Origin: a virus
IMG/VR virus record: IMGVR_UViG_3300035689_000004
Coordinates: 28,547-92,546 of that record
Direction: 5' to 3' (one strand)
Length of the DNA stretch: 64,000 bases
The position numbers and the translations under genes were made by a program. The notes under the pieces were generated by a model that saw only the letters and a program-made list of their open reading frames with translations, had not been told where the DNA came from and searched no databases. Shown piece by piece: positions 32,788-54,722 of the stretch; position 1 is the stretch's first letter, and every line of letters starts with the position of its first letter.

Positions 32788-35700
32788 ATGGCCATCAATA
32801 CCCTGCGCCCGCTGCGCCCCCGGCGGGCTATTTTATTGCGCAAAGACGCCCAGTTTGACTTGTTTGGCGGACAGGCAGAAGTAAAGCCGACAGCGGCGGC
32901 CAAGCGCCGGGAGCGAATTGCAGCAGGCTGGGGGGCTAAACCTAAAACCCAGCTAGGGCTATTTGGGCAGGATGACGATGTACCTGCCACCAAAGGCAAG
33001 GTAAAACCTAAGGCGCCTAAGGCACCCGTCGCGCCCAAGGTGCCAGAGGTAAAAGCGCCAGAGGTAAAAGCACCTGCTACACCTAAGGCGCCGTCTATGG
33101 CAGCAAAGGGACCCAAGGAGGGCGACACTCGCATTAACCGGGCAGGCAATCAGGAAGTATTGCGGGCAGGACGATGGCGGCTAGCCAGCAACCCTAAGGT
33201 AGTGGCTAAGGATAAGGGTAGTGCCGCGATCGTCCCGGTGGTTCAGGAGATTAAGGAGGAGAAGCCGGTAGAGAAACCAGCGGCAGCACCGGCGAAGGTA
33301 GAAGAGGTTAAGCCTGAACCCGTTGAGGTGCAGCAAGAGGTGAAGCCCGCCGAGCCAACTCCCGCGATCGCCGAGGAGAAACCTAGTCAGCAAGGATTGC
33401 CCCGGGCAACCATCCACCATGAGCGGCTTAATCGTTTCAAAAATCTTGCCAATAACGCTAGTGCGCTTCCCCCGGGTTCTAATAAAGAATCCATGAGAGC
33501 CGCTTTCCGGAAACTTTCTGGGGCGGTAAAAGATGAAGACAAAGTAGTACAAAGATGGCTGCGCGACTGGGAGAAGGAAGGGCTATCGCCTGATGAGGCG
33601 ATGCAAAGAGCTTATCGGTATGGTCAAGGGTTAGATCCCGTTCAGTCAGCGGAAGCACCAGCAACACCCACCACGCCGGAGCAACCTGCCGCTGAGCCAA
33701 CCCCGGCGATCGCGGTTGATGCTGACTTTGCTTCCACCAAGCAACAGAAGCAGCGCATCAAGATTAACCAGGATGTAGAGGCTCTGCTTAGCCAGAAGCC
33801 GGACGGACCTTATACCAAGGATGAATTAATCCTGCTTGCCAAGTATTCTGGCAAGGGCGGCATCACTGAAGATGACGGCAGCCTAAGCGAGTACTACACC
33901 CGTCCTGACGTTGCCAAGCACCTGACCGATATTCTCTACCAGCATGGATTTAAGGGCGGTGCCGTCCTAGAACCTAGCTGCGGTAATGGCGTATTTTTGC
34001 ATCAGTTCAAAGACGATCCCAACGTGTTGCCGGTAGGGGTGGAGCTAAGTGAAACCAGCGGCAAGGCGGCGGCAGCCCTGAACCCACACGCCGAAGTGAC
34101 AGCCGGGGCATCCTTTGAACGGTTCTGCCTAGACAATCCAGACTTTAGCCCTGATGCTGTAATCGGCAATGTTCCCTTTGGCACCCGCACCGTAGGCGGC
34201 GACCTAGAGGCATTTCGCAAGGTAGGGAAAGGATGGAAGGACAATGGCGACTTTTTCGTTCATGAAAGCCTATCCAGGCTGAAGCCAAGCGGCATCATGG
34301 CATTGATCGTGCCCCATGGCATCACCACCGGCAGCACCCATCAACGCCTGCGGGAGGAGTTGATGAAGCAAGGGCGGGTGATTGGCGTTCATCGTCTCCC
34401 TAATACCGCCTTTGCCCATACCAACACCAAGACTATTACCGATGTGCTGGTAATTCAAAAACATCCTGACGTCATCCTTAACGCGATCGCTGACGGGCAG
34501 AGTGATGTTATCGCCAAAACCCGAGACGATGCCTTTATCCATGGCAAATACTTTGAGGCTCACCCCGAACATGTCCTAGGCGAATACCAGGAGACCAGTA
34601 ACCAGTTTGGCGGTAAGTCATTTACCATCAACGGCAAGATCGAAGACGCGCTTGCCAGCGCCCAAGGGTTTACGCCAGACGTGAGCTATGACGGGCTACA
34701 AACAGATGGGGCGGAGGAGCGATCGCCGCAAAAGGGCGACACCCGTTATATCAATGGCAGACTGTACCGGCTAGAGGGTAACCCAGCCCGTTGGCACCTT
34801 GTCGAGCAATCTGAACCGGTTGCCGAGGAAGTGGACGCCTCCGGCTATGGTGCTGAGTCGATGGCAGATGCAGAGGCGCAGCTATTGGATGCGGGGCGAC
34901 GGGTCCTAATCCACCCAGATAACTTACAGGCATACCGAAACCTTGCCCACCAACACCTACCCAAGGCGGAGGCGATGGCGTTTGATGCCGCGATCGCGGC
35001 GAGTAATGCAGCAGGTTCTAGCATCGACAGGGAAAAGCTTGCCCACGCCATGCTGCTAGCAGACCACATTGAAAGGCTGCAGAAGGGCGATGCGGACCCG
35101 ATGCAGGTAGAGAAAGCGCTTAACATGCTGCAGGGCTACAGAGAGGCGCACGGCAACCCCTCGACCGACAAAACATTGATTGGGCTGTCTAGCCAATTCC
35201 CTGCGCTGTTGCGGCTACAGGGATGTTTTGACGAGAACGACAAGATCAGTGATTACTTCACCGACCATGACAAAGTTACCGCCCAGGTAAAGCGAACCCA
35301 TAGTGAAGCGGGCGCCGCTATGGCAGAAGCCTATCGCGCCGCCGGGGGCGAAGCGGTTGACCTGGACATGATCCGAGCTCAGTTAGATACAACGATGACT
35401 GATGCGGACCTAGAGGCAACCCTGGTTGCTGATCCAACGGTTGGCTATATCAATGGCGCCTACATGCCGATGGATCGGCTGCTGACCGGCAATGGCTTCA
35501 ACCTTGTTGATGCCATGCTGATGGAGGCAGAAGGGTTGCCAGAGGGTGCCGCCGCCCGGCGCAAACTTGAGGAGCAGATCGGCATCATTCGCTCCAGGCT
35601 AGAGCCAAGGCAGATGGAGGACATTACTACTCCATTCTGGGCCGTTGGCAGCTGGATACCTGTAGACGCGATTAATGCCTTTTTGACAGACCGCGACTAT

Positions 35701-38700
35701 GGTTCTTACTCCCAAGGGCAACGCGAACCTGTCAAAATCTACCGCGGGGCTGATGGTAAATGGCGGGTATCAGGCTATGCCTACGGCGTAGTAGAAGATG
35801 TCATCACCTCAATGAACCGGGGCAGGATTTCCCATGGCAAAAATACCCAAGAGGCAAAGGAAGCCGTCCAGGCGTTAGAGAAAGACTTTGCCCAGTGGAT
35901 TGCTGGCTCTGACTATCGCGTTCAGGTAGAGGAAGCCTATAACCTTGCCTTTAACTCTGACCTGCCCGAGCAGTTTAGTGGTGACCCGCTTGACATTAGC
36001 CTGTTTGAGCAATACGACGCAGACGAGGCGACCGGCAAGCGCAAAAAACGCCTGCACGACTACCAAACATCGACGATCCGGCAAATGGCCGCCCAGGGGA
36101 GAGGCATCATTGCCCTAGGGGTTGGACTTGGCAAGACAGCGACCAGTATCGGGCTAGCCTTGCACCTAAAAGAATCTGGCAGAGCCAAAAAGCCTACCTT
36201 TGTTGTACCCAAATCCGTCCTATCGAACTGGGTGAGGGAGGTAGGCTTCTGGGCACCTCAGGCGAATGTAATGATCCTGGGCCAGACCCAACGCTACTGG
36301 GCAGACGACACGCCCATGTGGGAGGTGCCAGGCTTTAAGATCGACGTTGCCAAGGGCGTACCAAAGCGCGATAAGGACGGCAACTATATTCTGTACCGTC
36401 AGATCGGGGAGCGTGACGTTACGACAAAAGGTAAAGACGGCAAAACCATAACCAAAAAGGAAAAGGTTTATGCCGATCAACCTATTTTGATGAGCGAAAA
36501 GGAATACCTCAAGGCAGGTAACCTTGTCTTTTCAGATGACGATGCCGCAACAAAACGGCTCAAACTACGCCAGTTGTCTCAAAACAACTATGACATGGTG
36601 CTGATGACGGAGCCTACCTTCCAGGCGCTTAGCTTGCACCCTGACAAAGAAACTGAGTACCTAGAGGACATCACCCAAGACGCGATCGGTCACCTGTCAG
36701 ACTCCAGCAAAGACACCCATAAGATGCTCGAAAAGATCGAGAAACGGCGGGTTAGCTTGGCCGCCAGGACTGATGACAATATCGAAGAGACGATCACCTT
36801 TGAGGAGCTAGGCATTGACGCGCTATTCCATGACGAGGCGCACCACCTTAAAAACCTGTACGGATCAAAGCGCAACCAAAGCTTAGCGTTTATGAGTCAG
36901 GCAGAGTCCAACCGATCGCTAGACTTTTACTACAAAGCCCGGTACATCCGGGAGAAAAACAACAACCAGAATGTTTACTTGCTTACCGCTACCCCTACCA
37001 CCAACAACCCGCTAGAGGCGTTTAACATGCTGCAACATGTTTGCCCGGAGGAGCTTGAAAAACGAGGCATCCAAAATATTGATGACTTCCTCGGCATGTT
37101 TGGCGATATGCAATCAGTTGAGGCGCCTGGCGTTGATGGCGAGATCAAGGAGAAATACGGGCTAGTTGGGTTCAAGAACCTTAAAGACCTGCGCCACCTG
37201 TTTAACAAGTATTGCCGGATGCAATCGGCTAAAGACGTTGGGCTTCCTATCCCTGAAGAAGCCACCCAGCATCACTATGTCAGTATGAGCCCGGCGCAAA
37301 AAGAACTTTACAACGATCTAAGGCGCCGCGCCCGTAATGCCGGTTCTGACAAAGGACCTCAGGACCACCTATTCTCAGTCATCAGCGACATGGATAAGGC
37401 GGTGATTGACCTTGCCTACTACAACGAAAGCGGTAGCGGCAAGTCTCCCCAGGTAGACATTCCAGAGGGTGAAAAGCCGCCTAAGGTTCAAGCTTGTATT
37501 GAGCAGGTGATGAGTAGCCGCAATGCCAACCAGGGCAAGCAGATCGTATTCTGTGACTCCGTGCAAATGCACCAACGCATCAAGCAACAGTTGGTCGAAG
37601 CTGGTTATCCCGAAGACCAGATCGCGATCGTCAATGCGGATGTTGCTAAAAATAGCCCAGACCGTCAGAAAATCAGCAATGCTTACAACGAAGGACGGAT
37701 TACCCTTGTCATTGGCAACACCGCCACCATGGGGGAAGGGATGAACTTTCAAATTGGCACCACTGACATTCACCACCTCACTACCCCATGGACCCCTGCT
37801 GCAATTGAACAGCGTAACGGACGGGGTGTTCGTCAAGGTAACGTACTAGACAATGTGGGCTGCCATTACTACCACGCCAAGGGCAGCTTTGACCAATATC
37901 GGCAACAAACCCTTGAGCGCAAGCGCGGTTGGATTGATGACCTATGGAAAGGGTCTGAGGATACCGCCTCCAACCAAGATACCGGGCTTCTCAATGCTGA
38001 CGAGATGGACATCATGCTGGCAGACGACCCAGAGGCGGCCCGGGCGGCGGCAGAGGCAAATCAAGAGCTTGCCCTTGACCGCCATCGCAAGAAGATGACC
38101 ACCGCCGCCCTGCGTGATTTTGCCCAGTTGCAGAACATGAGGCTGGTTGTCTCCAAGATGACCCCGGAGGCGCGCTCTAGGGAGCGTGGACGAGCGCTAG
38201 AGGCGCGACTAAGGCAGGTGACAGAAGCACTATCCAGGAATGAATACTTCCCCCACAAGCACCTGCTAGACGGCACTACGCCCGCTTATATCGGCTCTGA
38301 TGGCACCGTCTTGCAGGAGGGCGATCATGTTCGTCAGGATGATGGCAGCATTTATCAGATCACCAAGATAGACAATGCCAAGAGCAAATTTATCACCCAG
38401 ATGGTCAGCGGTCCTGACTACAGTCCATCCCGGCTATCGGAGAAGGGTGAAACCTTTGACTTTAAGCACGTCAATAGCACCAAGTCTCGCTCAGCGATCG
38501 CGCCAACGTCCTTTAACGAAAGGGTCCACGCGGACCGGGTGATTGATAGCCTATCTGCCTATGGTGCCTTTGAAACGATCGCTAGCCTATCGCCGGACGC
38601 GATCAACGAAAACCGGGGGCGAATCATGGACAAGCTTAAGAACGACTTGCCCTCCGCCTCCATGCCCTACCTGGACCCGGAGACCGATAAGCTCGTTCTA

Positions 38701-40224
38701 AATGCTTCAGTTAGCGAGATGCCAGCCAACGCCCAGGTGTTGTGGCCCCATGACGGTGAATCGATAGAAATCATCGTCAAGAAAATGGCAGAAGGTACTG
38801 GGGCAGGAACTTGGAAATTTGAAAGCCTCCTGCAACGAATGACCGGACGCAGTTGGAGCGCTGATGGATTAGGCGATGAAATCAAAGCCAGGGTGGAGGA
38901 GTACAAGCAACAAAATGCTGTCATAAAAGAGCAAGGACCTAAAGCCGGTGATACCCGTGTCAACGAGGCGGGGCACCAGGAAGTATTGCGCGATGGTCGT
39001 TGGCGTCGGGTTGACGAAGCTGACACGCCAACGCCTCAGCCTAATGCCGCCTATGCTGAAGGGTTGACGACTGAGCAACGCCTAGCCCTAGCTGAGGCGA
39101 TCAAAGAGAAAGCGCCAGCTAACTGGAGGGGCGACCAGCCACGGGAGCGCCAATTATCCAACGCGGTGTTCCAGGCGCTCGGCAATGACGTGGGGCTCAC
39201 TGTTGACGTGATGGAGCGAATTAAGCGATCGCCCTCTGACGAAGAGTTCATGGCAGCCCTGACGGCTGTTGCTGAGCCGGAGACGGCAACGGCTGAGCCG
39301 GATGCACCTGCCGTTGAAAGCGAGCCCAAGCAAACCAGATCGCCACGACTGCCAGAATCAGAGCATCCTCCCCACCCCGATCCTTTAGGTGCCATCCGTG
39401 ATGCACTAGAGCGCATCCAGGCAGATGATGACGTTGACGGCGGCGTTAAGCGCAATGGGATGGGCTGGAATTATTTCACCCGTAAGCTTGGCAGCAGCCT
39501 TGCCTATGAGGTGATGAGCGGCAACGAGCTAACACCTAGGCAGTATTACAAGGCATGGGAACTATTGACCAAACGTCATCGCCCCCAAGCAGGCGAACAA
39601 GCTACCGCCGATCAGCTTTCTAGTACGCTAAAGGAAATGTTTGGATGGGATGGCATCGAGTATGACAGCGATGGCGTAGAGGTGGGTGCCACCGGCAAAA
39701 TGCGCTTGGTTGGCGATGAAATCCATATCACCCGACCCTATAACAAAGCTGACCTTAACAAATTTAGGCGCATCCCTGGCCGCCGCTGGGACGGACAAGC
39801 TAAGGCGAACGTGATTCCTGTCCAGCGGTTCAGAGAAGCCCTAGAGCAATTCCCTGAAGAGGAGATGGACATCGATCCAGCCATCTTTGATCATCCTGGC
39901 ATCCAGGCTGACCCCGATGACATCCCAGCGGGGACCATCCAGGTTAAAGATGGAGAATTTCACATAACTTTCCCCTACGATCAAGAACTTGTCGCCCGGG
40001 TGAAAGGCATTAAGCAGCAGGGACGACAACTAGGAAAATGGGACGGCGCCAAGAAAGTATGGCGGTTCCCGGGCAGCAGAGAAGTTGAAGATTTGCTAAC
40101 CCGCGAGTTTCCAAATTTCCAATTAAAGAAAGCTGCTAAACGCTATTCCTTGGCAGGTGTTATCTACGAGCTTAGACGCACAGCCAGTAACGCCATTAGC
40201 TTAGTCCGAGTCCATCACGCTTAG
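32788..40224 (+). CDS. DarB-like polyvalent protein: N6-adenine DNA methyltransferase + SNF2 helicase + two HARP-like domains
   Basis: EYYTR, VLEPSCGNG, GNVPFG; GVGLGKT, DEAHHLKN, LTATP, GEGMNFQ, QRNGRGVRQGN; PY...IPGRRWD and FPYD...KWDGAKKVWRFP; ATG 32788 preferred to 32743. Confidence 0.88.
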   Translation: MAINTLRPLRPRRAILLRKDAQFDLFGGQAEVKPTAAAKRRERIAAGWGAKPKTQLGLFGQDDDVPATKGKVKPKAPKAPVAPKVPEVKAPEVKAPATPKAPSMAAKGPKEGDTRINRAGNQEVLRAGRWRLASNPKVVAKDKGSAAIVPVVQEIKEEKPVEKPAAAPAKVEEVKPEPVEVQQEVKPAEPTPAIAEEKPSQQGLPRATIHHERLNRFKNLANNASALPPGSNKESMRAAFRKLSGAVKDEDKVVQRWLRDWEKEGLSPDEAMQRAYRYGQGLDPVQSAEAPATPTTPEQPAAEPTPAIAVDADFASTKQQKQRIKINQDVEALLSQKPDGPYTKDELILLAKYSGKGGITEDDGSLSEYYTRPDVAKHLTDILYQHGFKGGAVLEPSCGNGVFLHQFKDDPNVLPVGVELSETSGKAAAALNPHAEVTAGASFERFCLDNPDFSPDAVIGNVPFGTRTVGGDLEAFRKVGKGWKDNGDFFVHESLSRLKPSGIMALIVPHGITTGSTHQRLREELMKQGRVIGVHRLPNTAFAHTNTKTITDVLVIQKHPDVILNAIADGQSDVIAKTRDDAFIHGKYFEAHPEHVLGEYQETSNQFGGKSFTINGKIEDALASAQGFTPDVSYDGLQTDGAEERSPQKGDTRYINGRLYRLEGNPARWHLVEQSEPVAEEVDASGYGAESMADAEAQLLDAGRRVLIHPDNLQAYRNLAHQHLPKAEAMAFDAAIAASNAAGSSIDREKLAHAMLLADHIERLQKGDADPMQVEKALNMLQGYREAHGNPSTDKTLIGLSSQFPALLRLQGCFDENDKISDYFTDHDKVTAQVKRTHSEAGAAMAEAYRAAGGEAVDLDMIRAQLDTTMTDADLEATLVADPTVGYINGAYMPMDRLLTGNGFNLVDAMLMEAEGLPEGAAARRKLEEQIGIIRSRLEPRQMEDITTPFWAVGSWIPVDAINAFLTDRDYGSYSQGQREPVKIYRGADGKWRVSGYAYGVVEDVITSMNRGRISHGKNTQEAKEAVQALEKDFAQWIAGSDYRVQVEEAYNLAFNSDLPEQFSGDPLDISLFEQYDADEATGKRKKRLHDYQTSTIRQMAAQGRGIIALGVGLGKTATSIGLALHLKESGRAKKPTFVVPKSVLSNWVREVGFWAPQANVMILGQTQRYWADDTPMWEVPGFKIDVAKGVPKRDKDGNYILYRQIGERDVTTKGKDGKTITKKEKVYADQPILMSEKEYLKAGNLVFSDDDAATKRLKLRQLSQNNYDMVLMTEPTFQALSLHPDKETEYLEDITQDAIGHLSDSSKDTHKMLEKIEKRRVSLAARTDDNIEETITFEELGIDALFHDEAHHLKNLYGSKRNQSLAFMSQAESNRSLDFYYKARYIREKNNNQNVYLLTATPTTNNPLEAFNMLQHVCPEELEKRGIQNIDDFLGMFGDMQSVEAPGVDGEIKEKYGLVGFKNLKDLRHLFNKYCRMQSAKDVGLPIPEEATQHHYVSMSPAQKELYNDLRRRARNAGSDKGPQDHLFSVISDMDKAVIDLAYYNESGSGKSPQVDIPEGEKPPKVQACIEQVMSSRNANQGKQIVFCDSVQMHQRIKQQLVEAGYPEDQIAIVNADVAKNSPDRQKISNAYNEGRITLVIGNTATMGEGMNFQIGTTDIHHLTTPWTPAAIEQRNGRGVRQGNVLDNVGCHYYHAKGSFDQYRQQTLERKRGWIDDLWKGSEDTASNQDTGLLNADEMDIMLADDPEAARAAAEANQELALDRHRKKMTTAALRDFAQLQNMRLVVSKMTPEARSRERGRALEARLRQVTEALSRNEYFPHKHLLDGTTPAYIGSDGTVLQEGDHVRQDDGSIYQITKIDNAKSKFITQMVSGPDYSPSRLSEKGETFDFKHVNSTKSRSAIAPTSFNERVHADRVIDSLSAYGAFETIASLSPDAINENRGRIMDKLKNDLPSASMPYLDPETDKLVLNASVSEMPANAQVLWPHDGESIEIIVKKMAEGTGAGTWKFESLLQRMTGRSWSADGLGDEIKARVEEYKQQNAVIKEQGPKAGDTRVNEAGHQEVLRDGRWRRVDEADTPTPQPNAAYAEGLTTEQRLALAEAIKEKAPANWRGDQPRERQLSNAVFQALGNDVGLTVDVMERIKRSPSDEEFMAALTAVAEPETATAEPDAPAVESEPKQTRSPRLPESEHPPHPDPLGAIRDALERIQADDDVDGGVKRNGMGWNYFTRKLGSSLAYEVMSGNELTPRQYYKAWELLTKRHRPQAGEQATADQLSSTLKEMFGWDGIEYDSDGVEVGATGKMRLVGDEIHITRPYNKADLNKFRRIPGRRWDGQAKANVIPVQRFREALEQFPEEEMDIDPAIFDHPGIQADPDDIPAGTIQVKDGEFHITFPYDQELVARVKGIKQQGRQLGKWDGAKKVWRFPGSREVEDLLTREFPNFQLKKAAKRYSLAGVIYELRRTASNAISLVRVHHA

Positions 40225-40232
40225 GTAAATCC

Positions 40233-40631
40233 ATGCTTTACGACTCCCAAGACATTCAGGCGACCAAGGCGGAACTGCTTGCCAAATACCAGACAGATGA
40301 TCGCTATATCGCCAAAGTCCTACCAGCGATCGCGGCTATGGTTGAGCGCCCCTGGGCATGGACTCATTTCGGTCCTTACTGGCCAGTCGTTCAATCGCTA
40401 ATCGTCAAGTATTACCCGCAAATGGCAACCCAGGCTAAAGAGTGGGGCGATCCACCTGACTATTTAGCGCACTATTCCCAGGGCGATGATATGTCAGACT
40501 GCATTGCAGCATTGATGTACCTCGAAAAGGATGACGACTATCTAAGCCCTGTCAATCAACCCCATAGCATTGAACTGCAAGACGGCAGGCGGGTTCTGTA
40601 CTCACCTACATCAGGAATTATTGAGCCATGA
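40233..40631 (+). CDS. Hypothetical protein
   Basis: FGPYWPVV; directly after the DarB-like gene. Confidence 0.6.
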   Translation: MLYDSQDIQATKAELLAKYQTDDRYIAKVLPAIAAMVERPWAWTHFGPYWPVVQSLIVKYYPQMATQAKEWGDPPDYLAHYSQGDDMSDCIAALMYLEKDDDYLSPVNQPHSIELQDGRRVLYSPTSGIIEP

Positions 40632-41698
40632 AATTATTCAAAAAGCGCAGACCCGCGATCGCTAAGTTTGACCCCTACCAAACAGCACTCCAACAATCCA
40701 TGGAAAGTGATCGCCAGGAGGTGCTGGAGAAAACAGCGACAGGACCCATCTTTACCCTCATGGGTGTCCCCTATATCTTTGACCCAGCCCAAGGGGTGCT
40801 GTGTAAGGCGGGGCGACGACGGGCACCCTCCCCGGGCCAGCTAGGTTTATTTGGCGGCCACAATGAGGGCGATACTAAGGTAGAGGATGGTGTCACTTAC
40901 CGGCTCAATGCCAATAGCCGATGGGAACGGATGGACAAACCCAAAGCCAGCGGCAAAAGGAAGCCAAAGCCCGCGATCGTCCCGGTGGTAGAGGCGGAGA
41001 AGCTTATGCCTGAGGTAGTTGACGATGCGCCCAAGCCTACTAGGCTAGGCGATCGCATCCGAGCGATCGCCAATGACCTGCGTGACGAAAATGATGAGCA
41101 GAAAAAGATCGCGGCTCGCATCTTAGGCGCAGCGGCCCAGATGGCGCAGAACTACGACAACTTGGTGGGTGAAGTTGTGGATATGGTGGGCGAGGACTTG
41201 GGTGAGGACATCAGAAGCCTTAACCCAGACGCCACCCAGGCGGACGTAGAGATGGCAGCCAGAGACGGCGGCAACGAGCCATCCCCCACCCGACTGGCTG
41301 ACAAAATGAAGGCGATCGCTAATGACCTGCGCAACGAAACCAACGAGCAGGTTAAGGCAACCGCCCGCATCCTTGACGCTGCCGCCCAAATCGCTCAAAA
41401 CTACGACAACCTAGTCGATGAAGTGGCGGAGATGGTGGGCGAAGACCTTCGCAAGCCATTAGATTCTACTCTCACCAAATCCTTGCCCCCTAGCCCCGTC
41501 TTTACCTTAATGGGTGTGCCCTACATCTTTGACCCCCACCGCGCCGTCCTGCGCAAGGCTGGCACCAGTTGGGAGCAGTTTGTAGCTGACCTCAGCAAGG
41601 AAGCTGATGACGATCCATGCTGGGAGGGCTACGAGGCTGTAGGCATGAAAAAGAAACGCGGCAAGATGGTTCCGAATTGTGTTCCTGTAAGCCGCTAA
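40628..41698 (+). CDS. Modular putative internal head protein
   Basis: Two FTLMGVPYIFDP tags, three L-x-K-[AS] sites, QLGLF/RW module, duplicated helical repeat, C-terminal CWEGY...VPNCVP. Confidence 0.65.
   Translation: MKLFKKRRPAIAKFDPYQTALQQSMESDRQEVLEKTATGPIFTLMGVPYIFDPAQGVLCKAGRRRAPSPGQLGLFGGHNEGDTKVEDGVTYRLNANSRWERMDKPKASGKRKPKPAIVPVVEAEKLMPEVVDDAPKPTRLGDRIRAIANDLRDENDEQKKIAARILGAAAQMAQNYDNLVGEVVDMVGEDLGEDIRSLNPDATQADVEMAARDGGNEPSPTRLADKMKAIANDLRNETNEQVKATARILDAAAQIAQNYDNLVDEVAEMVGEDLRKPLDSTLTKSLPPSPVFTLMGVPYIFDPHRAVLRKAGTSWEQFVADLSKEADDDPCWEGYEAVGMKKKRGKMVPNCVPVSR
40805..41002 (+). repeat. Dispersed coding repeat, copy 1 (copy 2 at 52686-52901)
   Basis: 51-aa peptide identical but for one residue; DNA differs mostly at third codon positions. 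Confidence 0.92.
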
Positions 41699-47554: not shown

Positions 47555-47585
47555 GGCTATCCCCTTCTCCGTGAAACTATCGAAT

Positions 47586-47628
47586 TATTGCATATTTGCT
47601 TGACCATTGCTTATTTGCAATATACTAT
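47586..47628 (+). promoter_or_regulatory. Promoter covered by two family-B operators
   Basis: TTGACC 47600-05, 17 bp, TACTAT; TATTGCATATTTGCTT and ATTGCTTATTTGCAATA flank the -35. Confidence 0.65.
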
Positions 47629-47687
47629 TTGAATTGTGAGCCACGGGGTTCACAACCACTCAAAAGACCACGGAGACGGAGATTGTT

Positions 47688-48071
47688 ATGAGAAGTTTCA
47701 TTATCGGCGCTAGCCTGACTGCTGCCTTGCTTCCCACTATGCCTATGGCAACCACAACCACAACCACAACCACAACCGCGATTGTTGTTGCCATGCGCGG
47801 CGACGGCTACTGCCCGGACGAAAAGTACAGCTCTGATCCAGATTGCGCCCGGGAGGGCGCCCAATGGCGGGGCAGTGGACGGGTAGATGACACTGACAGC
47901 CAAGCTAAGTCCGGACCTAGCCGCGACGACTACCCCCGGTGCCGCAACTGGGAAACAAGCGAACCACGCCCTGCTGGCTGCCGTCGGCGGGCTAACCTGA
48001 TGGCTAGCGCCGAAAGCGATAAGCGGAATCAGTGGCCCGATCGCACACCCCAGCCTGGCCACCTTGGCTAA
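47688..48071 (+). CDS. Secreted peptide precursor containing RGSGR (PatX-like candidate)
   Basis: Signal-peptide-like N-terminus, (CAACCA)n poly-Thr, RGSGR at 47868-47882; GGAG RBS, terminator about 48088-48118. Confidence 0.55.
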   Translation: MRSFIIGASLTAALLPTMPMATTTTTTTTTAIVVAMRGDGYCPDEKYSSDPDCAREGAQWRGSGRVDDTDSQAKSGPSRDDYPRCRNWETSEPRPAGCRRRANLMASAESDKRNQWPDRTPQPGHLG

Positions 48072-48133
48072 TTGACGCAACCCCCTAGGGCTGGCTTCGG
48101 CTGGCCCCCAATTTTTTTATTTAGGAGAGAACC

Positions 48134-48901
48134 ATGGCAGACAACGTTGATACAAATTTGGCGATCGCTCTCGCCCTTGAGGAGATCGCCGCATCCTTGA
48201 AGGCGATCGCGCTATCGACAGTTCCCAAGAGCACTCATCAGGCTTTAGGTTTTCTGGCAGATGACGCACGACCTACCTATATTTATTGCAATCTAACTGG
48301 CGGCGGCGATCGCTGGTATCGCTTGACAGAAGACAACCAAAGGGAAAACATGCCCTCTGCCTTTTTGGGACTGGTAAAAGACCTGCGCTTTGTCAGTAGA
48401 GAGCGAAGTGGCGAGGAAACCGCAAAGTTTGAGCTACACATGGAGGACAAGGACGGTAACGCTTACGTCTTTGAAGCTGGGGCAGAAACGTTCTTTGCTC
48501 GATCCGTTCTAACCGCCCTAAGCCTCTGCCCCGTGGCGGACTTGAGGCAGCCCATTCGACTGTTCAGCTTTGTATCTGATCTGAATAACAAGAAAAAAAC
48601 TCTCAATGTCAGCCTTACCAGCCAGTCTGGAAAGCTAAACGCTAGCTGGAAGAAGGACGACAACTGGCGGGCGATCGCTACCGCCGCCAAGTTCAACGTC
48701 TACAAAGCCCTGGGCAAAGAAGCGCCAGCACCGGAGCCCACCACCCATCCAGCGACACCGCCGCCGCCAACCCGTCCCCCGGCAGGCAATCCACCTGGCG
48801 GAGCCCGCGATCGCATTGCCCAGCGGGCCAGTGTTAGACCCGTCGCCGCCGGGGTGGATTCACGGGCGGCAACTGATTGGGATGAAGAGATACCGTTCTA
48901 G
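48134..48901 (+). CDS. Putative ssDNA-binding protein (SSB-like acidic tail)
   Basis: Pro-rich linker and C-terminal DWDEEIPF like bacterial SSB DFDDDIPF. Confidence 0.55.
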   Translation: MADNVDTNLAIALALEEIAASLKAIALSTVPKSTHQALGFLADDARPTYIYCNLTGGGDRWYRLTEDNQRENMPSAFLGLVKDLRFVSRERSGEETAKFELHMEDKDGNAYVFEAGAETFFARSVLTALSLCPVADLRQPIRLFSFVSDLNNKKKTLNVSLTSQSGKLNASWKKDDNWRAIATAAKFNVYKALGKEAPAPEPTTHPATPPPPTRPPAGNPPGGARDRIAQRASVRPVAAGVDSRAATDWDEEIPF

Positions 48902-48909
48902 GAGTAGCC

Positions 48910-49107
48910 ATGAACCAACCTATTGAGTTGTCTGCTGAAGCGGAGTTTGCGATCGCGGCATTTGAGCAGTCGCTAGACAGCCTGGAGTTTACCCGGGCCA
49001 ACTTTGAAGAGCTCAAGGGTATCGCCCTGGGGCTAAAGCGCCTGGAGGCGGGCCAACGGGCGTTCCTGGCGGCCCAGGTAAAAAGCGCCTGGGGGAGGAA
49101 CCAATGA
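48910..49107 (+). CDS. nblA: Phycobilisome degradation adaptor NblA-like
   Basis: MNQPIELSAEAEFAIAAF...VKSAWG versus recalled Nostoc NblA MNQPIELSLEQQFSIRSF...LKHQWG; same size. Confidence 0.72.
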   Translation: MNQPIELSAEAEFAIAAFEQSLDSLEFTRANFEELKGIALGLKRLEAGQRAFLAAQVKSAWGRNQ

Positions 49108-49334
49108 CCATCAACCGTCTGATCGACCTAATGCGACAAGCCCAGCAGCGGGCAGCATCAGAGCGATCGCTAGTCATGCCCACTAGTTACTCATCGCGCC
49201 GTGGCGTTTCCCATACCCTTCTCTGTTTGGACTGCAAGTACTACAACCCTACCACCCAGGCGTACCTGCGGTGTGCGGTTCACCCCGAAGGACCGGAGGG
49301 CGATACCTTTTGCCCCGACAAGGAGGAGCGATGA
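49104..49334 (+). CDS. DUF6464-like Cys-rich protein
   Basis: CKYY...YLRCAVHPEGP...CPD. Confidence 0.6.
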   Translation: MTINRLIDLMRQAQQRAASERSLVMPTSYSSRRGVSHTLLCLDCKYYNPTTQAYLRCAVHPEGPEGDTFCPDKEER

Positions 49335-49873
49335 GGAGACTGTTATTGCTAGATCACACCGCCCTGGTGCAACACCGCAACGGACCCGGCATCTACATCA
49401 ACAACCGGGACGATATGGTGCTGGTTCCAGGTATCCTAGGCGCCCTGGAGCCTTACATTGATAAGGGCTACAACGTCGCCATCTGTAGCAACCAGGGCGG
49501 CGTTGAGAAAGGCCACCTAGCCTTCGGCGCCTGCCAAAGCCTATTCGGTGAAATGTTCAAGCTGTCCAACTATTGGGTTCAGGCCATTTGGTTTTGCCCC
49601 CTAGCCCGGGGCAGCACCGGCAGTTATGCCATCCAGATGACGATGCCCTACGAGCCTAAGGAATACAGCAAGTGTCAGAAGTATGCCAGCACTGGCTACC
49701 GGATGCCCAAGGCGGGCATGATTTTAGCCGCCATGAACTGGTTCAGGGTGACACCTGAGCAGACCACCATGGTGGGCTTACAGCCAAATGCTTACGATGC
49801 CGCCGCTGATGCGGGCGTCAGAAAGTTTGTCCACAGTTCCTATTTCATTGAAAAAGCGGGAGTATTGCAATGA
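49331..49873 (+). CDS. HAD-IIIA (GmhB/PNKP-type) phosphatase-like protein, catalytic motifs degenerate
   Basis: SNQGGV, RMPKAGM, TMVG; motif I LDHTAL. Confidence 0.65.
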   Translation: MRRLLLLDHTALVQHRNGPGIYINNRDDMVLVPGILGALEPYIDKGYNVAICSNQGGVEKGHLAFGACQSLFGEMFKLSNYWVQAIWFCPLARGSTGSYAIQMTMPYEPKEYSKCQKYASTGYRMPKAGMILAAMNWFRVTPEQTTMVGLQPNAYDAAADAGVRKFVHSSYFIEKAGVLQ

Positions 49874-50994
49874 AGTTTACAGTTGATGCAGAAGTATTGG
49901 CAGAGGCGATCGCGCTGTGCGATCGCGCTATCCCTAAGCGCCCTAGCCGCCCTATCCTGGGCCACATGCTAATGCAGCTAGACAATGGCAGCCTTACCCT
50001 AAAAGGGTTTGACGAAGCGCTAGGGATTAGCTTTTCGTTGCCAGTAGACATGGAGCGATCCGGTGATTGCTGTGTGTCGCCTACCTACCTAAAACCCATC
50101 TTGGAGCGCCTATCAGGGCAGGTGGCTTTAGATCTGCAGCACCCTGTCCTGGTGCTAACCACCCTAGGCGGTGAGTACCGGATTAATACCCTCCTGGCTG
50201 AGGACTACCCCAACTTGCCTGAGGTGGACGGCACCCCGGTGGAGTTGTCCATATCCTCAGAAGAACTACGGGCCGCGATCGCGGCTACGGTGTTCTGTGC
50301 CAGCACCGACGAAAGCAAACAGGTGCTGACCGGCGTCCATTTCTCTGTCACCCCCGGCGAAGAGGGGGAGGCAGGGGTAATGGAATTAGCGGCCACCGAT
50401 GGCCATCGAATGATCGCCTATCCGCTACCCGGCGGTAGTGTTGTCATCCCCGAGGACTATCGCCCCGTCACCCTACCCGGGAAGAGCCTGCGGGAATTGT
50501 TAACCGTCCTGAAGGGCTACGAAGGCACCGTCAAGCTAACCTTTGACGATGTGTCTGTACATGCCCTGTGTGGCGACACCGAGCTTTACAGCCGTGTCAT
50601 CGAGGGGCAATACCCCAACTACCGGCAGCTATTCCCCAAGGTGTTCTCCAAGGTGGCGACCTGCGATCGCAAACCGTTTCTGTTAGCCCTCGATCGCACC
50701 CTGGTGGTGGCCGGTGAAAACCGAGACATCGTTAAGCTGGAGTTTGACACCACTGGGCTGGTGATGAGTGCAGAGGCAAAAGAGGCGGCCAAAGCTCAGG
50801 AGCAGGTTGCCGGTGCAGCCTGCAACGACGCTATCACCCTGGCGGGCAATGGCAAGTACATCAAGGAGGCGCTAACCAACGCGATCGTTGGCGAAACCTT
50901 CACCATGGAGATGAATAAGCCGGAAAGCCCAGTGGTTTTTACAGATGGGTCCCCGGCGACCTATTTGATGATGCCCATTCAGATTAGGAGTTAG
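49870..50994 (+). CDS. dnaN: DNA polymerase III beta sliding clamp
   Basis: RPILG, STDESKQVLTGV, AATDGHR, GQYPNYRQL, YLMMPIQIRS; 374 aa. Confidence 0.95.
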   Translation: MKFTVDAEVLAEAIALCDRAIPKRPSRPILGHMLMQLDNGSLTLKGFDEALGISFSLPVDMERSGDCCVSPTYLKPILERLSGQVALDLQHPVLVLTTLGGEYRINTLLAEDYPNLPEVDGTPVELSISSEELRAAIAATVFCASTDESKQVLTGVHFSVTPGEEGEAGVMELAATDGHRMIAYPLPGGSVVIPEDYRPVTLPGKSLRELLTVLKGYEGTVKLTFDDVSVHALCGDTELYSRVIEGQYPNYRQLFPKVFSKVATCDRKPFLLALDRTLVVAGENRDIVKLEFDTTGLVMSAEAKEAAKAQEQVAGAACNDAITLAGNGKYIKEALTNAIVGETFTMEMNKPESPVVFTDGSPATYLMMPIQIRS

Positions 50995-50996
50995 TT

Positions 50997-51176
50997 ATGA
51001 ACCTGAAGCCCGGCTATGCGATCGCCTATCGCCCATCCACGGAGGAACCCTGGCAACAAGCGTCTGTCTTTGCGGTCGATGGCGATAAGGTGATGGTTAA
51101 ACTGCCACCACGCGCCCACGCGTCTAGGTTTGTCACGGTGGACATTGACAGTGGTTTGATAGGGCCACCGTTCTGA
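50997..51176 (+). CDS. 59-aa small beta protein (not in track)
   Basis: AGGAG RBS, TGATG coupling; MNLKPGYAIAYRPSTEEPWQQASVFAVDGDKVMVKL. Confidence 0.6.
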   Translation: MNLKPGYAIAYRPSTEEPWQQASVFAVDGDKVMVKLPPRAHASRFVTVDIDSGLIGPPF

Positions 51177-51916
51177 TGCAGGAGTTTTACATAGGCTGGC
51201 ATCAGCCCGTCAACGGCCTGTCTGGCTGCGGGGATTTTCCCCGGTGCATGGTGTCAGTCAACCGACTTCTAAGGCGTCGCTCTCCCTTCCCGGTTCAATC
51301 CTGGATATTGGATAGCGGCGCTTTTACTCGCATCGCTAGCGGGCAAGGCCATTTGCCAGCAGAAGACTATGCCAAAGAAATCCGGCGATGGGCAAAAAAC
51401 GGTAACCTTGTGGCAGCTGTAGCGCAGGACTATATGTGTGAGCCATTTATCCTTGGCAAGACCGGGCTAACCATTGAAGACCACCAACGGCTAACCATAG
51501 AAAACTACGATCGCCTGCTTGCCCTAGATACCGGCGTCTATATTATGCCAGTGCTGCAAGGCTACTCCCCCGCTGACTACGTTAGGCACCTGCACGATTA
51601 CGGCGATCGCTTACGTCCTGGACAATGGGTAGGGGTGGGTTCTGTCTGCAAGCGAAACAGCAACCCTGGGGCAATTGAAGCCGTCTTGGTGGCGATTAAG
51701 ACAGCTCGCCCCGATCTGAGGTTGCACGGGTTTGGCGTTAAGAAGACCGCCCTAGAATCTTCAATTGTGTGGGACTTACTTTACTCAGCGGATAGCCAAG
51801 CCCATAGCTTTGCAGCACGGATGGAGAACCGAAACGCCAATTGCCCAAAGGTTGCGCTTAATTACGCCAAAGGCATCGGCAGCCCCTTGCAGGCATCCAT
51901 ATTTTCAGCGTTCTAA
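51176..51916 (+). CDS. DpdA-like (TGT-fold) deazaguanine DNA transglycosylase
   Basis: ILDSGAF, QDYMCEP, MPVLQG, GVGSVC, LHGFG, SADS motifs. Confidence 0.72.
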   Translation: MQEFYIGWHQPVNGLSGCGDFPRCMVSVNRLLRRRSPFPVQSWILDSGAFTRIASGQGHLPAEDYAKEIRRWAKNGNLVAAVAQDYMCEPFILGKTGLTIEDHQRLTIENYDRLLALDTGVYIMPVLQGYSPADYVRHLHDYGDRLRPGQWVGVGSVCKRNSNPGAIEAVLVAIKTARPDLRLHGFGVKKTALESSIVWDLLYSADSQAHSFAARMENRNANCPKVALNYAKGIGSPLQASIFSAF

Positions 51917-51992
51917 CCATTTCTCGAACCTACGCTAAGATAGGCATAGCGTAGGCATAATTTATTTCCTATCCCTAGCTCCTATCTCCTCC

Positions 51993-54722
51993 ATGGTTCT
52001 TCCGGTGGAGGCTATCCTGTCCAAGTCAGCCGATATGGTTGTGGGCGGGGTAGCCTCCAATTTTTTTAGAGATCTTGACGGCGATGCCATTTGCCCGGAC
52101 GCGATTCAACGCGCTATCCCTGGCTTCATGGCAACCCGTGGCCCGGACGGGCTAAAGGGTGGCCCCATTCGCCTGCACCATGGCTTCTGGGAGCGATTTC
52201 TAAAGCAGTCTATCTCTGCCCTTAATATTCCCTACGACCAACAAGTGGGGCTACTAGCCGCGATCGCGCTCCCCCTGGGCCGGGTGACTGAGATGAGCGT
52301 CGATAGCGATGGCACTACGCGCTGGCGGGGTGTCCTGTCTGGCGCTAACCCCATCGCCCGGGTGGTGTGGAATATGCTCAAAGAGGGCATGGTTCACCTT
52401 GGCGTTAGCGTGGGTGGCAAGATCAACGGTGTACGCCCCGGCAGAGATGCGATCGGGCGGACCTGCAACCTGATTACCGACGTACGGCTGGACGAATTGA
52501 GCATTACTGACAACCCGGCCAACCGGCTAATTGAGTCCGAGACCCCCGACAATGGCGCCTACATTACCGCGCTTGCTAAATCTGTGGGTAATACCATGCT
52601 CGCTCAGAAACAACAGCATTACATCTACCTGAATGGCATCGCCTATACCGCTCACCCTAGCGAAGAGCATGGCATTGTCCTACGCAAGGCAGGACGGCGG
52701 CGAGTGCCCTCCCCGGGCCAGCTAGGCTTATTTGGTGGCCACAATGAGGGCGATACCAAAGTAGAGGACGGTGTTACCTATCGGCTAAATGCCAATAGCC
52801 GCTGGGAACGGATGGATAAACCCAAGGCCAGCGGTAAGCCGTCTGGCGGGAAGATGAAGGCGGAAAAACCTGCGATCGTCCCGGTGGTGGAGGCGGAGAA
52901 GGGAGAGGCTAAGCCTGAGGACGTTGAACCTAGCATTTCAACCTCTGCTGAACCTAAAGCAAGCCGCACTAGCAGAAGCTTTACCGCTGAAACGCTTACG
53001 CCTCAAGATATTCAATTGAGCGACATCCAGGAAGTCGCTGGCGAAGAGTCGCTTCACGGGGAAAAGCAATACTCATTAAGGAATTTATTTGATCCTACCG
53101 CTTCACCGCTTAAGCTGGGATTTTTCCCGTCCGCTAATGCGGCCTTAGCCACTGTTCAGGACGAAATGGAGTTTCCGTATTATGTAGGTGAAATGGAGAT
53201 GGCGGCAGGGGCTCTTGGACGCATTGAGCGACGAGAGGCGGTTGCTGAAATGGTGCTTGGCGCGATTCGGAAACGGGTGGCTGACGGCGAATCGGTGCTA
53301 CTGTCCCAAGGGCGGTACGGCATGAGTTCTCGCAATCCCAAAAGTACCGTCATTGATGCCGACAGCGTCGATCTCCTCAGGGCCAGGAATGGGAATATTG
53401 AGCTGAAGCATGGTCAAAAATGGGTACAACATACGGCGGGTTTTGACCTGCTGGAATTGGCCCAGCGGGTAGGACTTGATCCTGAAGCCCTTGATGCCTT
53501 CATTTCAGGTGACTCCGACCCCGAACCCACCGTTAGCGAAATGCTGGAGCAGCAGCAAGCCGCGATCGCGGATGAGCCTATGCCTGAGGGTGAGGCGATG
53601 GAGGGGGCGGATGATGACTGGGAAAGCAAGCTGCAAGAGCTTCAATCCATTGGCAATCAAGCCAAATTAGATGGACCCGAGGGTGTGAAGGATGACGCGA
53701 CAGAGGCGCCTGGGGTTTCTTACAATCCTGACTTAGTGCAGCAACGAATCAACCAAGGTTATTTTGAAGGCCGGGCTTTCTACTCAAAAGCCGTACAAGC
53801 CATGAAAGCAGCATTGTCAGCAGGTAGATCTGTCAAACTGCATTTTGATGACCAAAGTAGCTATGGCGCCAATCTGGTAGCTGAAATCGACGGGGTTCGG
53901 CACCCTATCACTCGCTCGAAACTAAAGCCAAAAGATATTGCGTTTCTCCTGACGGTCAACAGTCATTCGGCAATGGACGTTTCGGCAGGCGCCTTGGAAC
54001 AATTAGGACTAGGCAGCAAAACTGCCCCAACCGGACGCAAACGATCTTCCGCCTTTACCAAATCCTCCACCCCCTCACTCCCCATGACTATCGATAACTT
54101 CCTCCGCAAAGCCCTGGGCAATCCTGGGCGTGAGTTTGGTTCTGGCGCATGGCGGGATACGGGCATCCCGGCGATGGGTCGCAAGGTTGACGCCAAAAGC
54201 CCGCAGCCGAAGGGTGGCAAAGAGGTACAAATGGATGAATCCGGCAGTGCCCATGCCGGTAAGGGTATCGGTGGCAAGCAACCCAAAGCCCATCGCCCCT
54301 ACTCCTCCGGCGGTATGCCCCCCACCGATGTATTCGGTATCACCATCACCCAGCTGACCCGCAACCTAGCTAAAGCTTGCTACATGGACAAGGACGCCTG
54401 GGGTAGCCCGGAGACGGTTTCTTTCTTGACCGACAGCGCCAGGGCGATCGCGGGCATGACTGACACCCCGACCGACCCGATGGTGAACTTTGTCCGGTTC
54501 TTGCAATACTGCACCCGTTTCGCCCAAGAATTGCCGTTTATGAACGACTACCAGGCGGCGGGGACGGTGAAGGCGATGAATGCCGACCTAACCAAAGCAC
54601 TGGACGAATTCGTAGAGAAGATGCCTGAGGAGCTAAAGGGAAAACCTTTGCGCCCTGCCGGTTCACCCGGCGTTGTGGGCATCGACGTTCAGTTTCCCCA
54701 ACAGTACGTTATTTACTCCTAG
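51993..54722 (+). CDS. Prohead maturation protease (HK97-type) fused to a long multi-module extension
   Basis: GVAS...RDLDGD, LHH, GVSVGG, LDELSITDNPAN. Confidence 0.82.
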   Translation: MVLPVEAILSKSADMVVGGVASNFFRDLDGDAICPDAIQRAIPGFMATRGPDGLKGGPIRLHHGFWERFLKQSISALNIPYDQQVGLLAAIALPLGRVTEMSVDSDGTTRWRGVLSGANPIARVVWNMLKEGMVHLGVSVGGKINGVRPGRDAIGRTCNLITDVRLDELSITDNPANRLIESETPDNGAYITALAKSVGNTMLAQKQQHYIYLNGIAYTAHPSEEHGIVLRKAGRRRVPSPGQLGLFGGHNEGDTKVEDGVTYRLNANSRWERMDKPKASGKPSGGKMKAEKPAIVPVVEAEKGEAKPEDVEPSISTSAEPKASRTSRSFTAETLTPQDIQLSDIQEVAGEESLHGEKQYSLRNLFDPTASPLKLGFFPSANAALATVQDEMEFPYYVGEMEMAAGALGRIERREAVAEMVLGAIRKRVADGESVLLSQGRYGMSSRNPKSTVIDADSVDLLRARNGNIELKHGQKWVQHTAGFDLLELAQRVGLDPEALDAFISGDSDPEPTVSEMLEQQQAAIADEPMPEGEAMEGADDDWESKLQELQSIGNQAKLDGPEGVKDDATEAPGVSYNPDLVQQRINQGYFEGRAFYSKAVQAMKAALSAGRSVKLHFDDQSSYGANLVAEIDGVRHPITRSKLKPKDIAFLLTVNSHSAMDVSAGALEQLGLGSKTAPTGRKRSSAFTKSSTPSLPMTIDNFLRKALGNPGREFGSGAWRDTGIPAMGRKVDAKSPQPKGGKEVQMDESGSAHAGKGIGGKQPKAHRPYSSGGMPPTDVFGITITQLTRNLAKACYMDKDAWGSPETVSFLTDSARAIAGMTDTPTDPMVNFVRFLQYCTRFAQELPFMNDYQAAGTVKAMNADLTKALDEFVEKMPEELKGKPLRPAGSPGVVGIDVQFPQQYVIYS
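52686..52901 (+). repeat. Dispersed coding repeat, copy 2
   Basis: Matches 40805-41002. Confidence 0.92.

What the first reader, a model, noticed from the sequence alone, without database searches (positions are those of the whole stretch)
32851..52735. Clamp-binding motifs on predicted injected proteins plus a phage-encoded beta clamp
Seen: QFDLF (32851) and QLGLF (32950) in the DarB-like N-terminus, QLGLF in 40628 and in the protease extension, weaker terminal QASIF (DpdA-like) and QPSIF (13578), and a full dnaN at 49870. Established: QL[SD]LF is the beta-clamp motif and E. coli Pol II uses QLGLF. Inference: injected proteins dock on or jam the host clamp, or ride the phage clamp to modify newly replicated DNA.
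Basis: partly seen in the sequence, partly recalled or inferred. Interest (0 to 1): 0.72.

Follow-up and report, generated by a model that had tools for sequence, protein, structure and literature searches.

The report
Clamp-type motif on phage cargo tags
Five head-packaged proteins of this cyanobacterial phage, and its DNA-modifying enzyme DpdA, carry a conserved short peptide identical in form to the handle that bacterial proteins use to grip the DNA sliding clamp, which suggests but does not prove that injected anti-restriction enzymes ride or block that clamp.

Summary
QFDLF and QLGLF sit where stated, and dnaN at 49870-50994 is a full beta clamp. The QLGLF copies are not independent. They belong to a ~70-residue tag shared by five proteins of the 92.5-kb phage record (three in the window, two upstream). 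The tag is a beta-hairpin ending in V/I-L-R-K|A (probable HK97-type prohead-protease site), then an unstructured basic loop with PGQ(L/M)xLF, then an 'RW' hairpin. Across homologues Q, L4 and F5 are fixed while positions 2 and 3 vary, which is the constraint seen in real clamp-binding motifs. The two in-window copies differ by 21 synonymous changes and almost no amino-acid changes. The same 12 residues occur at the clamp-binding site of Archangium MutS. Unrelated polyvalent phage proteins start with a short hydrophobic leader ending in KA, then QLGLFD. The 'weak' DpdA motif is the strongest case: 94 of 120 homologues end in a QLSIF-type motif, and penta- and hexapeptide forms interchange. The link to a phage-encoded clamp is weak: 0 of 50 DpdA phage records and 0 of 16 RW-hairpin records have dnaN. 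Clamp binding is my best reading (about 0.45). The main rival is a virion assembly or ejection docking motif. Nothing here tests binding.

The parts
32743..40224 (+). DarB-like polyvalent protein (N6 DNA methylase plus SNF2 helicase, 2493 aa) with three RW hairpins at about aa 127, 665 and 2069
   Evidence: Pfam N6_Mtase, SNF2-rel_dom and Helicase_C. PHROG 11801 and PHROG 10089 'DarB-like antirestriction', E 2e-111. RW hairpins.
32851..32865 (+). QFDLF, directly after L-L-R-K-D. It reads QLGLF in a related phage.
   Evidence: The relative L165 has QLGLF at the same place.
32950..32964 (+). Second motif, QLGLF followed by GQ, 33 residues after the first. It is deleted in a related phage.
40233..40631 (+). 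Ulx-like gene next to the DarB-like gene, the same pairing as in phage P1
   Evidence: phrog_1629, E 8e-9. P1 gene order.
40745..40939 (+). Cargo tag of ORF 40628-41698: beta-hairpin, L-C-K|A-G, loop with QLGLF (40838-40852), RW hairpin
   Evidence: In the AF2 model strands 41-60 and 83-101 have pLDDT 85-90 and the loop 61-80 has pLDDT 55-61.
49870..50994 (+). Phage-encoded beta sliding clamp (dnaN, 374 aa)
   Evidence: Three Pfam clamp domains. TIGR00663 at 221 bits, over the cut-off. PDB clamps at E 1e-29.
51176..51916 (+). DpdA (PF23859) with the C-terminal motif QASIF at 51890-51904, outside the Pfam-matched core
   Evidence: Tail conservation.
51993..54722 (+). Fusion of HK97-like prohead protease (aa 1-190), tag plus passenger of about 470 aa (flanked by L-R-K-A at aa 230 and 704), and a scaffold-like C-terminus
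   Evidence: TIGR01543 gives only a weak hit. Homologues of about 420 aa lack the insert.
52617..52820 (+). Cargo tag inside 51993, with QLGLF at 52719-52733
13596..13610 (-). QPSIF, 5 residues from the C-terminus of ORF 13578-15767
   Evidence: An 85%-identical homologue ends QPGLLLDTQL*.
54738..56562 (+). Acidic scaffold-like protein (54738-55544) with five L-x-K-[AS] sites, and the major capsid protein (55573-56562) whose N-terminus reads A-L-L-K|S-L-G
   Evidence: phrog_10 major head protein.

Best explanation
The pentapeptides are a selected short linear motif of the beta-clamp-binding type, carried on a modular tag for head cargo.

Shown: five proteins share a tag made of a beta-hairpin ending in V/I-L-R-K|A, a basic Pro/Gly-rich unstructured loop with PGQ(L/M)xLF, and an RW hairpin.

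Inferred: the hairpin and the L-x-K|A/S site act as a capsid-targeting propeptide that the HK97-type prohead protease removes. That would leave QLxLF within about 3-12 residues of the mature N-terminus of each packaged protein.

Inferred: after ejection, or late in the infected cell, this motif docks in the hydrophobic cleft of a sliding clamp. The clamp would usually be the host's; in this phage it could also be its own DnaN. Docking would tether the DarB-like methylase/helicase and the other cargo to DNA-loaded clamps, or compete with host clamp clients.

The non-packaged DpdA uses the same kind of motif at its C-terminus, which would couple 7-deazaguanine insertion to newly replicated DNA.
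For: - The motif matches the highest-affinity consensus QLxLF. QLGLF is the E. coli Pol II motif.
- In 20+ tag homologues Q, L4 and F5 are fixed while position 2 is L/M/F and position 3 is G/S/D/E/N. Positions 1, 4 and 5 are the critical ones in real motifs.
- QFDLF changes to QLGLF at the same site in a related phage.
- The two in-window copies show 21 synonymous differences across about 50 identical codons.
- The motif loop is unstructured in the AF2 model.
- The 12 residues around the motif are identical to those at the MutS clamp-binding site of Archangium.
- Q[LMF]x[LM]F occurs 6 times against 0.4 expected in 21 unrelated RW-hairpin polyvalent proteins. Several of these sit right after a short N-terminal leader ending in KA.
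- DpdA tails: 94 of 120 homologues have the motif, against about 10 after shuffling and 1 in an internal control window. In a more diverse viral set 40 of 59 distinct tails have penta- or hexapeptide forms, against 3.8 expected.
- The phage DnaN is complete and keeps T-D-G-H-R and a C-terminal M-P-I-Q-I-R. I matched these to the E. coli pocket segments from memory. E. coli Thr172 and Gly174-Leu177 are among the subsite I residues listed in the review.
- Precedent: phage Mu MuC binds the clamp through QHDLF and QPDLF.
Against:
- The tag also sits on a passenger inside the prohead protease and on three proteins of unknown function, two of them encoded among tail and baseplate genes. A role for the clamp there is not obvious.
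- The motif always travels with conserved hairpins and a protease site, as expected of an assembly signal.
- P1 DarB and T4 internal proteins are packaged through N-terminal signals.
- dnaN is absent from 50 of 50 DpdA phage records and from 16 of 16 RW-hairpin records, although the latter are only 12-68% complete.
- The DpdA consensus has Ile at position 4 and a nearly invariant Ser at position 3, which is tighter than typical clamp motifs.
- Few copies of each protein are injected compared with the number of clamps in a cell.
Confidence: 0.45

Rival explanations
1. QLxLF is a virion-internal docking motif. It would bind the scaffold, portal, MuF-like protein or capsid interior to load cargo into proheads, or position cargo at the portal for ejection. 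Its likeness to clamp-binding motifs would be convergence on a generic Q-hydrophobic-x-L-F peptide.
For: The motif is shared only by proteins expected in the head: the DarB-like protein, the neighbour of the Ulx-like gene, and the protease passenger. It is always next to a probable protease site and conserved hairpins. N-terminal capsid-targeting signals are established for P1 DarB and T4 IPIII. Polyvalent proteins of unrelated phages carry the motif at their extreme N-terminus. dnaN is not generally present in such phages.
Against: The part N-terminal to the cleavage site (the hairpin, or a 7-14-residue hydrophobic leader) already looks like the targeting propeptide. QLxLF lies on the mature side. 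Homologues of the protease-scaffold without the tag exist, so the fusion does not need the tag for packaging. The P1 DarB signal shows no such motif. This reading does not explain the same motif class at the C-termini of DpdA and ORF 13578, which are not head proteins.
Confidence: 0.33
2. QLxLF is part of the recognition or processing signal of the prohead protease or another peptidase, marking where polyvalent proteins are cut into pieces.
For: Recurrent short motifs in linkers of giant multidomain proteins are typical of polyprotein cleavage sites. L-R-K-A occurs 5 times against 0.7 expected. A 3235-aa relative has three such motifs spread along its length.
Against: The probable cleavage sites in the capsid protein and scaffold (L-x-K|S/A) have no QLxLF nearby. 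C-terminal copies only 3-5 residues from the stop codon would release nothing useful. In the DarB-like protein the motif occurs only at the N-terminus, although RW hairpins mark three domain borders.
Confidence: 0.1
3. The motifs are chance matches or a by-product of composition and have no function.
For: Short pentapeptides do arise by chance. The methyltransferase QLALF is not conserved.
Against: QLxLF occurs 6 times against 0.36 expected. It is conserved across more than 20 homologues and under purifying selection. DpdA tails show 94 of 120 against about 10 after shuffling.
Confidence: 0.02

Closest known systems
Bacterial beta-clamp-binding motifs (QL[SD]LF; Pol II QLGLF, MutS, DnaE, Hda)
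   Same: Same penta- and hexapeptide pattern. Same critical positions. Terminal or unstructured location. Flanks identical to a MutS site.
   Different: The carriers are phage head-packaged polyvalent or cargo proteins and DpdA, none of which is a described clamp client. Binding is untested.
Phage Mu MuC/Mor clamp-binding motifs (PMC12867686)
   Same: A phage protein with near-consensus motifs at both termini (QHDLF, QPDLF) that uses the host clamp. QP-type variants resemble the QPSIF of ORF 13578.
   Different: MuC is a late transcription activator made in the cell. It is not a virion cargo or a DNA-modifying enzyme.
Capsid-targeting sequences of P1 DarB and T4 IPIII (PMC9024508)
   Same: An N-terminal signal on a DarB-type protein with an Ulx-like neighbour. 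The propeptide ends at a prohead-protease site, as in T4.
   Different: No sequence similarity to the P1 DarB N-terminus. Here one tag is shared by five proteins, and it carries an extra conserved motif and an RW hairpin on the mature side.
Polyvalent proteins of phages and conjugative elements (Iyer et al. 2017, PMC5512222)
   Same: Giant multidomain methylase/helicase proteins predicted to be packaged and injected.
   Different: That paper's main text does not contain the word 'clamp'. I did not see the RW hairpin or the KA-QLGLF leader in the passages I read.
Phage DpdA 7-deazaguanine DNA transglycosylases (PMC6884629, PMC10516641)
   Same: The Pfam DpdA domain scores over the cut-off. The enzyme is proposed to act after replication.
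   Different: A conserved C-terminal Q-L-S-I-F-type tail is not mentioned in these papers ('sliding clamp' occurs 0 times in either; 'clamp' 0 times in PMC10516641).

Membership tests
Beta-clamp-binding motif clients | Pentapeptide Q-aliphatic-x-[L/M]-[F/L] or hexapeptide Q-aliphatic-x-[L/M]-x-[F/L] | tested here: met
   QLGLF three times in the window and twice upstream, plus QFDLF. The definition is taken from the review read. The QASIF of DpdA and the QPSIF of ORF 13578 have Ile at position 4 and fit only a looser pattern.
Beta-clamp-binding motif clients | Positions 1, 4 and 5 conserved among homologues, with positions 2 and 3 tolerant | tested here: met
   Tag family. QFDLF to QLGLF swap. 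DpdA family.
Beta-clamp-binding motif clients | Motif lies in a disordered terminus or loop | tested here: met
   The AF2 loop 61-80 of ORF 40628 has pLDDT 55-61 and no secondary structure. The DpdA motif is in the last 8 residues, outside the Pfam core. This is inferred for the other carriers from their Pro/Gly-rich flanks.
Beta-clamp-binding motif clients | Physical binding in the clamp's hydrophobic cleft, lost on Q or LF mutation | not testable with these tools
   No complex prediction or binding assay is available here.
DnaN beta sliding clamp (49870-50994) | Three clamp domains, full length, equivalog score | tested here: met
   PF00712, PF02767 and PF02768. TIGR00663 at 221 bits against a cut-off of 138.
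DnaN beta sliding clamp (49870-50994) | Intact peptide-binding pocket | tested here: inconclusive
   T-D-G-H-R-M and a C-terminal M-P-I-Q-I-R are present. I matched them to E. coli T172-L177 and M362-L366 from memory together with the residue list. No residue-by-residue alignment to E. coli was shown.
P1 DarB-type packaged antirestriction protein | N6 methylase plus SF2 helicase in one giant protein, with an adjacent ulx-like gene | tested here: met
P1 DarB-type packaged antirestriction protein | Presence in the virion and injection | not testable with these tools
   Metagenomic record; no proteome is available.
T4/P1-type capsid-targeting propeptide | Short N-terminal segment ending at the prohead-protease cleavage site, shared by head-internal proteins | tested here: inconclusive
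   L-R-K-A is enriched at 5 against 0.7 expected. The capsid N-terminus reads A-L-L-K|S-L-G. The passenger is flanked by two sites. The cleavage itself is not shown.
HK97 prohead protease (N-terminus of 51993) | Match to the family model over its cut-off | tested here: not met
   TIGR01543 gives 16.8 bits against a cut-off of 59, and Pfam gives nothing. A 68%-identical homologue is named HK97 family prohead protease by NCBI, so the assignment is likely but rests on that name.
DpdA (PF23859) | Pfam domain over the gathering score | tested here: met
   129 bits against a cut-off of 27. The AF2 model has mean pLDDT 95.

The most novel reading that the evidence does not exclude
A widespread N-terminal signal on phage head-packaged polyvalent proteins consists of a hydrophobic leader, a K|A cleavage site, then QLGLF-type motifs. 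Together with a conserved C-terminal motif on phage DpdA, it recruits the bacterial sliding clamp, so that injected and early anti-restriction DNA-modifying enzymes are carried along phage DNA by the clamp or displace host clamp clients. A few phages, such as this one, add a private DnaN.
Probability: 0.3. Interest if true: 0.85.

Novelty: new variant of a known kind. Interest (0 to 1): 0.63.

Why it matters
Two gaps would be addressed. How giant injected anti-restriction proteins find and cover incoming phage DNA in time is unknown. How DpdA reaches the high modification levels reported for some phages is also unknown. A clamp handle on these enzymes would give both a simple physical mechanism, parallel to DNMT1-PCNA coupling in eukaryotes and to Mu MuC in phages. 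It would also add a new class of clamp clients and offer a role for orphan phage dnaN genes. It is directly testable with peptides and purified clamps. Independently of the clamp question, the shared cleavable tag is a candidate signal for loading foreign proteins into capsids.

Tried and rejected
Host assignment to filamentous cyanobacteria rests only on the names of protease and methylase homologues.
- tblastn of the tag and of the capsid protein against cultured phages found nothing. megablast of 40200-55000 found nothing.
- A viral scan with P0010 found nothing.
- The protein atlas gave no usable hit for the protease passenger or the record-7267 cargo. Pfam and PHROGs give no function for four of the five cargos.
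- Co-occurrence with dnaN was tested and rejected as a general rule. Only this lineage and one very distant myovirus (G003; DnaN 25% identical, 6 of 101 genes shared) have it.
- The methyltransferase N-terminal QLALF was rejected as evidence because it is not conserved.
- The P1 DarB N-terminus has no similar motif.
- A first alignment-based locus search failed because the alignment was too gappy.

Full report
**Context.** The window is bases 28547-92546 of a 92.5-kb IMG/VR virus record that is about 87% complete. It is a myovirus-like temperate phage. It has a portal, tail sheath, baseplate and HK97-type capsid protein, a serine recombinase, its own sigma factor, a DnaD-like replication protein, dnaN and dpdA. 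I found no DNA polymerase among the ORFs scanned. Homologues of its protease and methyltransferase are named from Leptothoe, Leptolyngbya, Desertifilum and other cyanobacteria, so the host is probably a filamentous cyanobacterium. That is an inference.

**Observation.** dnaN has three clamp domains and passes the TIGR00663 equivalog cut-off. QLxLF occurs 6 times in 101 predicted proteins against 0.36 expected.

These occurrences are not independent. The copies in ORF 40628 and ORF 51993 lie in a duplicated segment, 161 nt at 85% DNA identity. Across that segment about 50 codons encode the same residues despite 21 synonymous differences, which is clear purifying selection on the peptide. Scanning the whole record found the same element at the N-termini of two more paralogous proteins upstream of the window, at record ORFs 7267-8349 and 16504-17643.

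**Anatomy of the tag**:
- A small beta unit, I-Y-T-L-x-G-V-P-Y ... G-I-V-L-R-K-A-G.
- A basic Pro/Gly-rich loop carrying P-G-Q-(L/M)-x-L-F.
- An 'RW' hairpin, G-D-T-K-x-E-N-G-x-T-Y-x-L-N ... R-W-E-R.

AlphaFold2 on a 23-sequence alignment gives both beta units pLDDT 85-90. The 20-residue loop with QLGLF gets pLDDT 55-61 and no secondary structure.

The RW hairpin occurs alone, often 2-4 times, in giant polyvalent proteins of other phages. It occurs three times in the DarB-like protein here.

**Probable processing.**
- L-R-K-A occurs 5 times against 0.7 expected, and L-x-K-[AS] 36 times against 16.6.
- The capsid protein begins ...A-L-L-K|S-L-G-I-S-D. From memory, this resembles the HK97 maturation site.
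- The acidic scaffold-like protein has five such sites.
- The 909-aa ORF 51993 equals its ~420-aa cyanobacterial homologues (protease plus a scaffold-like C-terminus) with an inserted tag and a ~470-aa passenger. The insert is flanked by L-R-K-A at aa 230 and 704, and the shorter homologues lack tag, motif and hairpin.

I therefore infer that the hairpin plus L-R-K|A is a cleavable targeting propeptide, as in T4 IPIII and functionally like the N-terminal signal of P1 DarB. QLxLF would then end up near the mature N-terminus. In other polyvalent proteins the leader is only 7-14 hydrophobic residues ending in K-A, followed at once by Q-L-G-L-F-D or by repeated x-D-L-F-[AG].

**Is the motif a clamp-binding motif?**

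In favour:
- It matches the highest-affinity consensus QLxLF, and QLGLF is the Pol II motif.
- Homologues read QLGLF, QLELF, QLDLF, QMSLF, QMGLF and QMNLF. Q, L4 and F5 are fixed, and positions 2 and 3 are free. That is the pattern described for DnaE and PolC motifs.
- The DarB-like first motif is QFDLF here and QLGLF in a related phage. The second motif is deleted there.
- A scan of 185,579 genomes for P-[SA]-P-G-Q-L-G-L-F returned 13 confirmed loci, all in Archangium and close myxobacteria. In the locus I translated (L041, Archangium minus) the match lies in MutS, in the C-terminal linker where MutS carries its clamp motif, and 12 residues are identical to the tag.
- In 21 RW-hairpin proteins recruited through the hairpin rather than the motif, Q[LMF]x[LM]F occurs 6 times against 0.4 expected.

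**The strongest independent support is DpdA.**
P, Q and S are each at least 90% conserved in a 70-sequence alignment.
- 94 of 120 homologues have Q-x-x-[LIMV]-[FLWY] in the last 25 residues, with consensus P-x-Q-L-S-I-F. An internal control window gives 1 of 120, and shuffled tails give about 10.
- In 76 more divergent IMG/VR loci, 40 of 59 distinct tails have either a pentapeptide (QYGLF, QMALL*, QHSLF*) or a hexapeptide (QLSLCL, QHLLDL, QLSLVF). Shuffling predicts 3.8. Interchange of these two forms is typical of clamp motifs.
- The tail lies outside the Pfam-matched core.
- A cultured example, Sinorhizobium phage phiLM21, ends in QMEMFA*. Some mycobacteriophage DpdAs end in acidic x-L-F motifs and others have none.
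- 'Sliding clamp' occurs 0 times in the four main DpdA papers listed, and 'clamp' occurs 0 times in the one I searched directly.
- ORF 13578 ends in QPSIF, and its 85%-identical homologue ends in QPGLL-L. QP-type motifs are functional in Mu MuC.

**Against, or limiting.**
- Binding was not testable.
- The tag marks head cargo in general, including proteins of unknown function and the protease passenger.
- The tie to a phage clamp is weak. 0 of 50 DpdA phage records have dnaN, and 25 of those are at least 90% complete. 0 of 16 further RW-hairpin records have it, but those are only 12-68% complete.
- Only this lineage and one very distant myovirus have dnaN. That myovirus, G003, shares 6 of 101 genes with this phage, and its DnaN is 25% identical. 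G003 also has a cargo-like protein that starts M-T-V-L-L-F-K-A and contains G-Q-A-D-M-F-G-G, and a small ORF ending in Q-M-D-L-F-G-G-V-A*.
- If the motif binds a clamp, it is therefore mainly the host's.
- The methyltransferase QLALF is not conserved.

**Verdict.**
- The motif is real, selected and of the clamp-binding type.
- I put clamp binding at about 0.45 for the tag and somewhat higher for DpdA.
- A virion assembly or ejection docking role is at about 0.33, and a processing signal at about 0.1.

Noticed in passing
window 51890-51916 (DpdA C-terminus) and loci L054-L130: The DpdA family PF23859 has a conserved C-terminal P-x-Q-L-S-I-F-type tail. 94 of 120 homologues carry it, and penta- and hexapeptide forms interchange in more distant phages. 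I did not find it mentioned in the DpdA papers I could search.
   Followed up: yes
window 51993-54722: The prohead protease gene carries an insertion of a tag plus a ~470-aa passenger, compared with ~420-aa protease-scaffold homologues in cyanobacterial prophages. The insert is flanked by L-R-K-A at aa 230 and 704.
   Followed up: partly
window 55573-55620 and 54738-55544: The capsid protein N-terminus reads A-L-L-K|S-L-G-I-S-D, which resembles the HK97 maturation site. The acidic scaffold-like protein has five L-x-K-[SA] sites. L-x-K-[AS] occurs 36 times against 16.6 expected in the proteome.
   Followed up: partly
window 33121-33204, about 34735-34830 and about 38947-39040 (DarB-like aa 127, 665, 2069): The RW hairpin (G-D-T-R/K ... 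R-W-x-R/L) recurs at three domain borders of the DarB-like protein. It is found, often in several copies, in polyvalent proteins of many IMG/VR phages. No library used here describes it as a domain.
   Followed up: partly
window 41594-41695 (C-terminus of ORF 40628): The C-terminal C-W-E-G-Y ... N-C-V-P motif matches the ends of several PHROG families of unknown function (phrog_9737, E 1e-8). It is preceded by a second copy of the tag's beta-hairpin and L-R-K|A site, without QLGLF.
   Followed up: no
window 41063-41446: ORF 40628 contains an internal direct repeat: 135 nt, 76% identity, spacing 249 nt. It duplicates a long helical segment.
   Followed up: no
L026:9790-10296 and G003 23805-26081: A very distant dnaN-encoding myovirus has a small ORF ending in S-P-Q-M-D-L-F-G-G-V-A*. 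It also has a 758-aa protein that starts M-T-V-L-L-F-K-A and contains G-Q-A-D-M-F-G-G, the same pentapeptide as the internal motif of E. coli Pol III alpha.
   Followed up: partly
L041:7427-10174 (Archangium minus MutS): The MutS C-terminal linker reads S-R-A-P-S-P-G-Q-L-G-L-F-G-G, identical over 12 residues to the phage tag loop.
   Followed up: yes
window 13578-13800 (-): The C-terminal region of ORF 13578 has a C-E-F-D-H-I ... N-C ... H-R-K-K pattern that looks like an HNH nuclease, just before the QPSIF tail. Pfam, PHROGs and NCBIfam give no hit.
   Followed up: no
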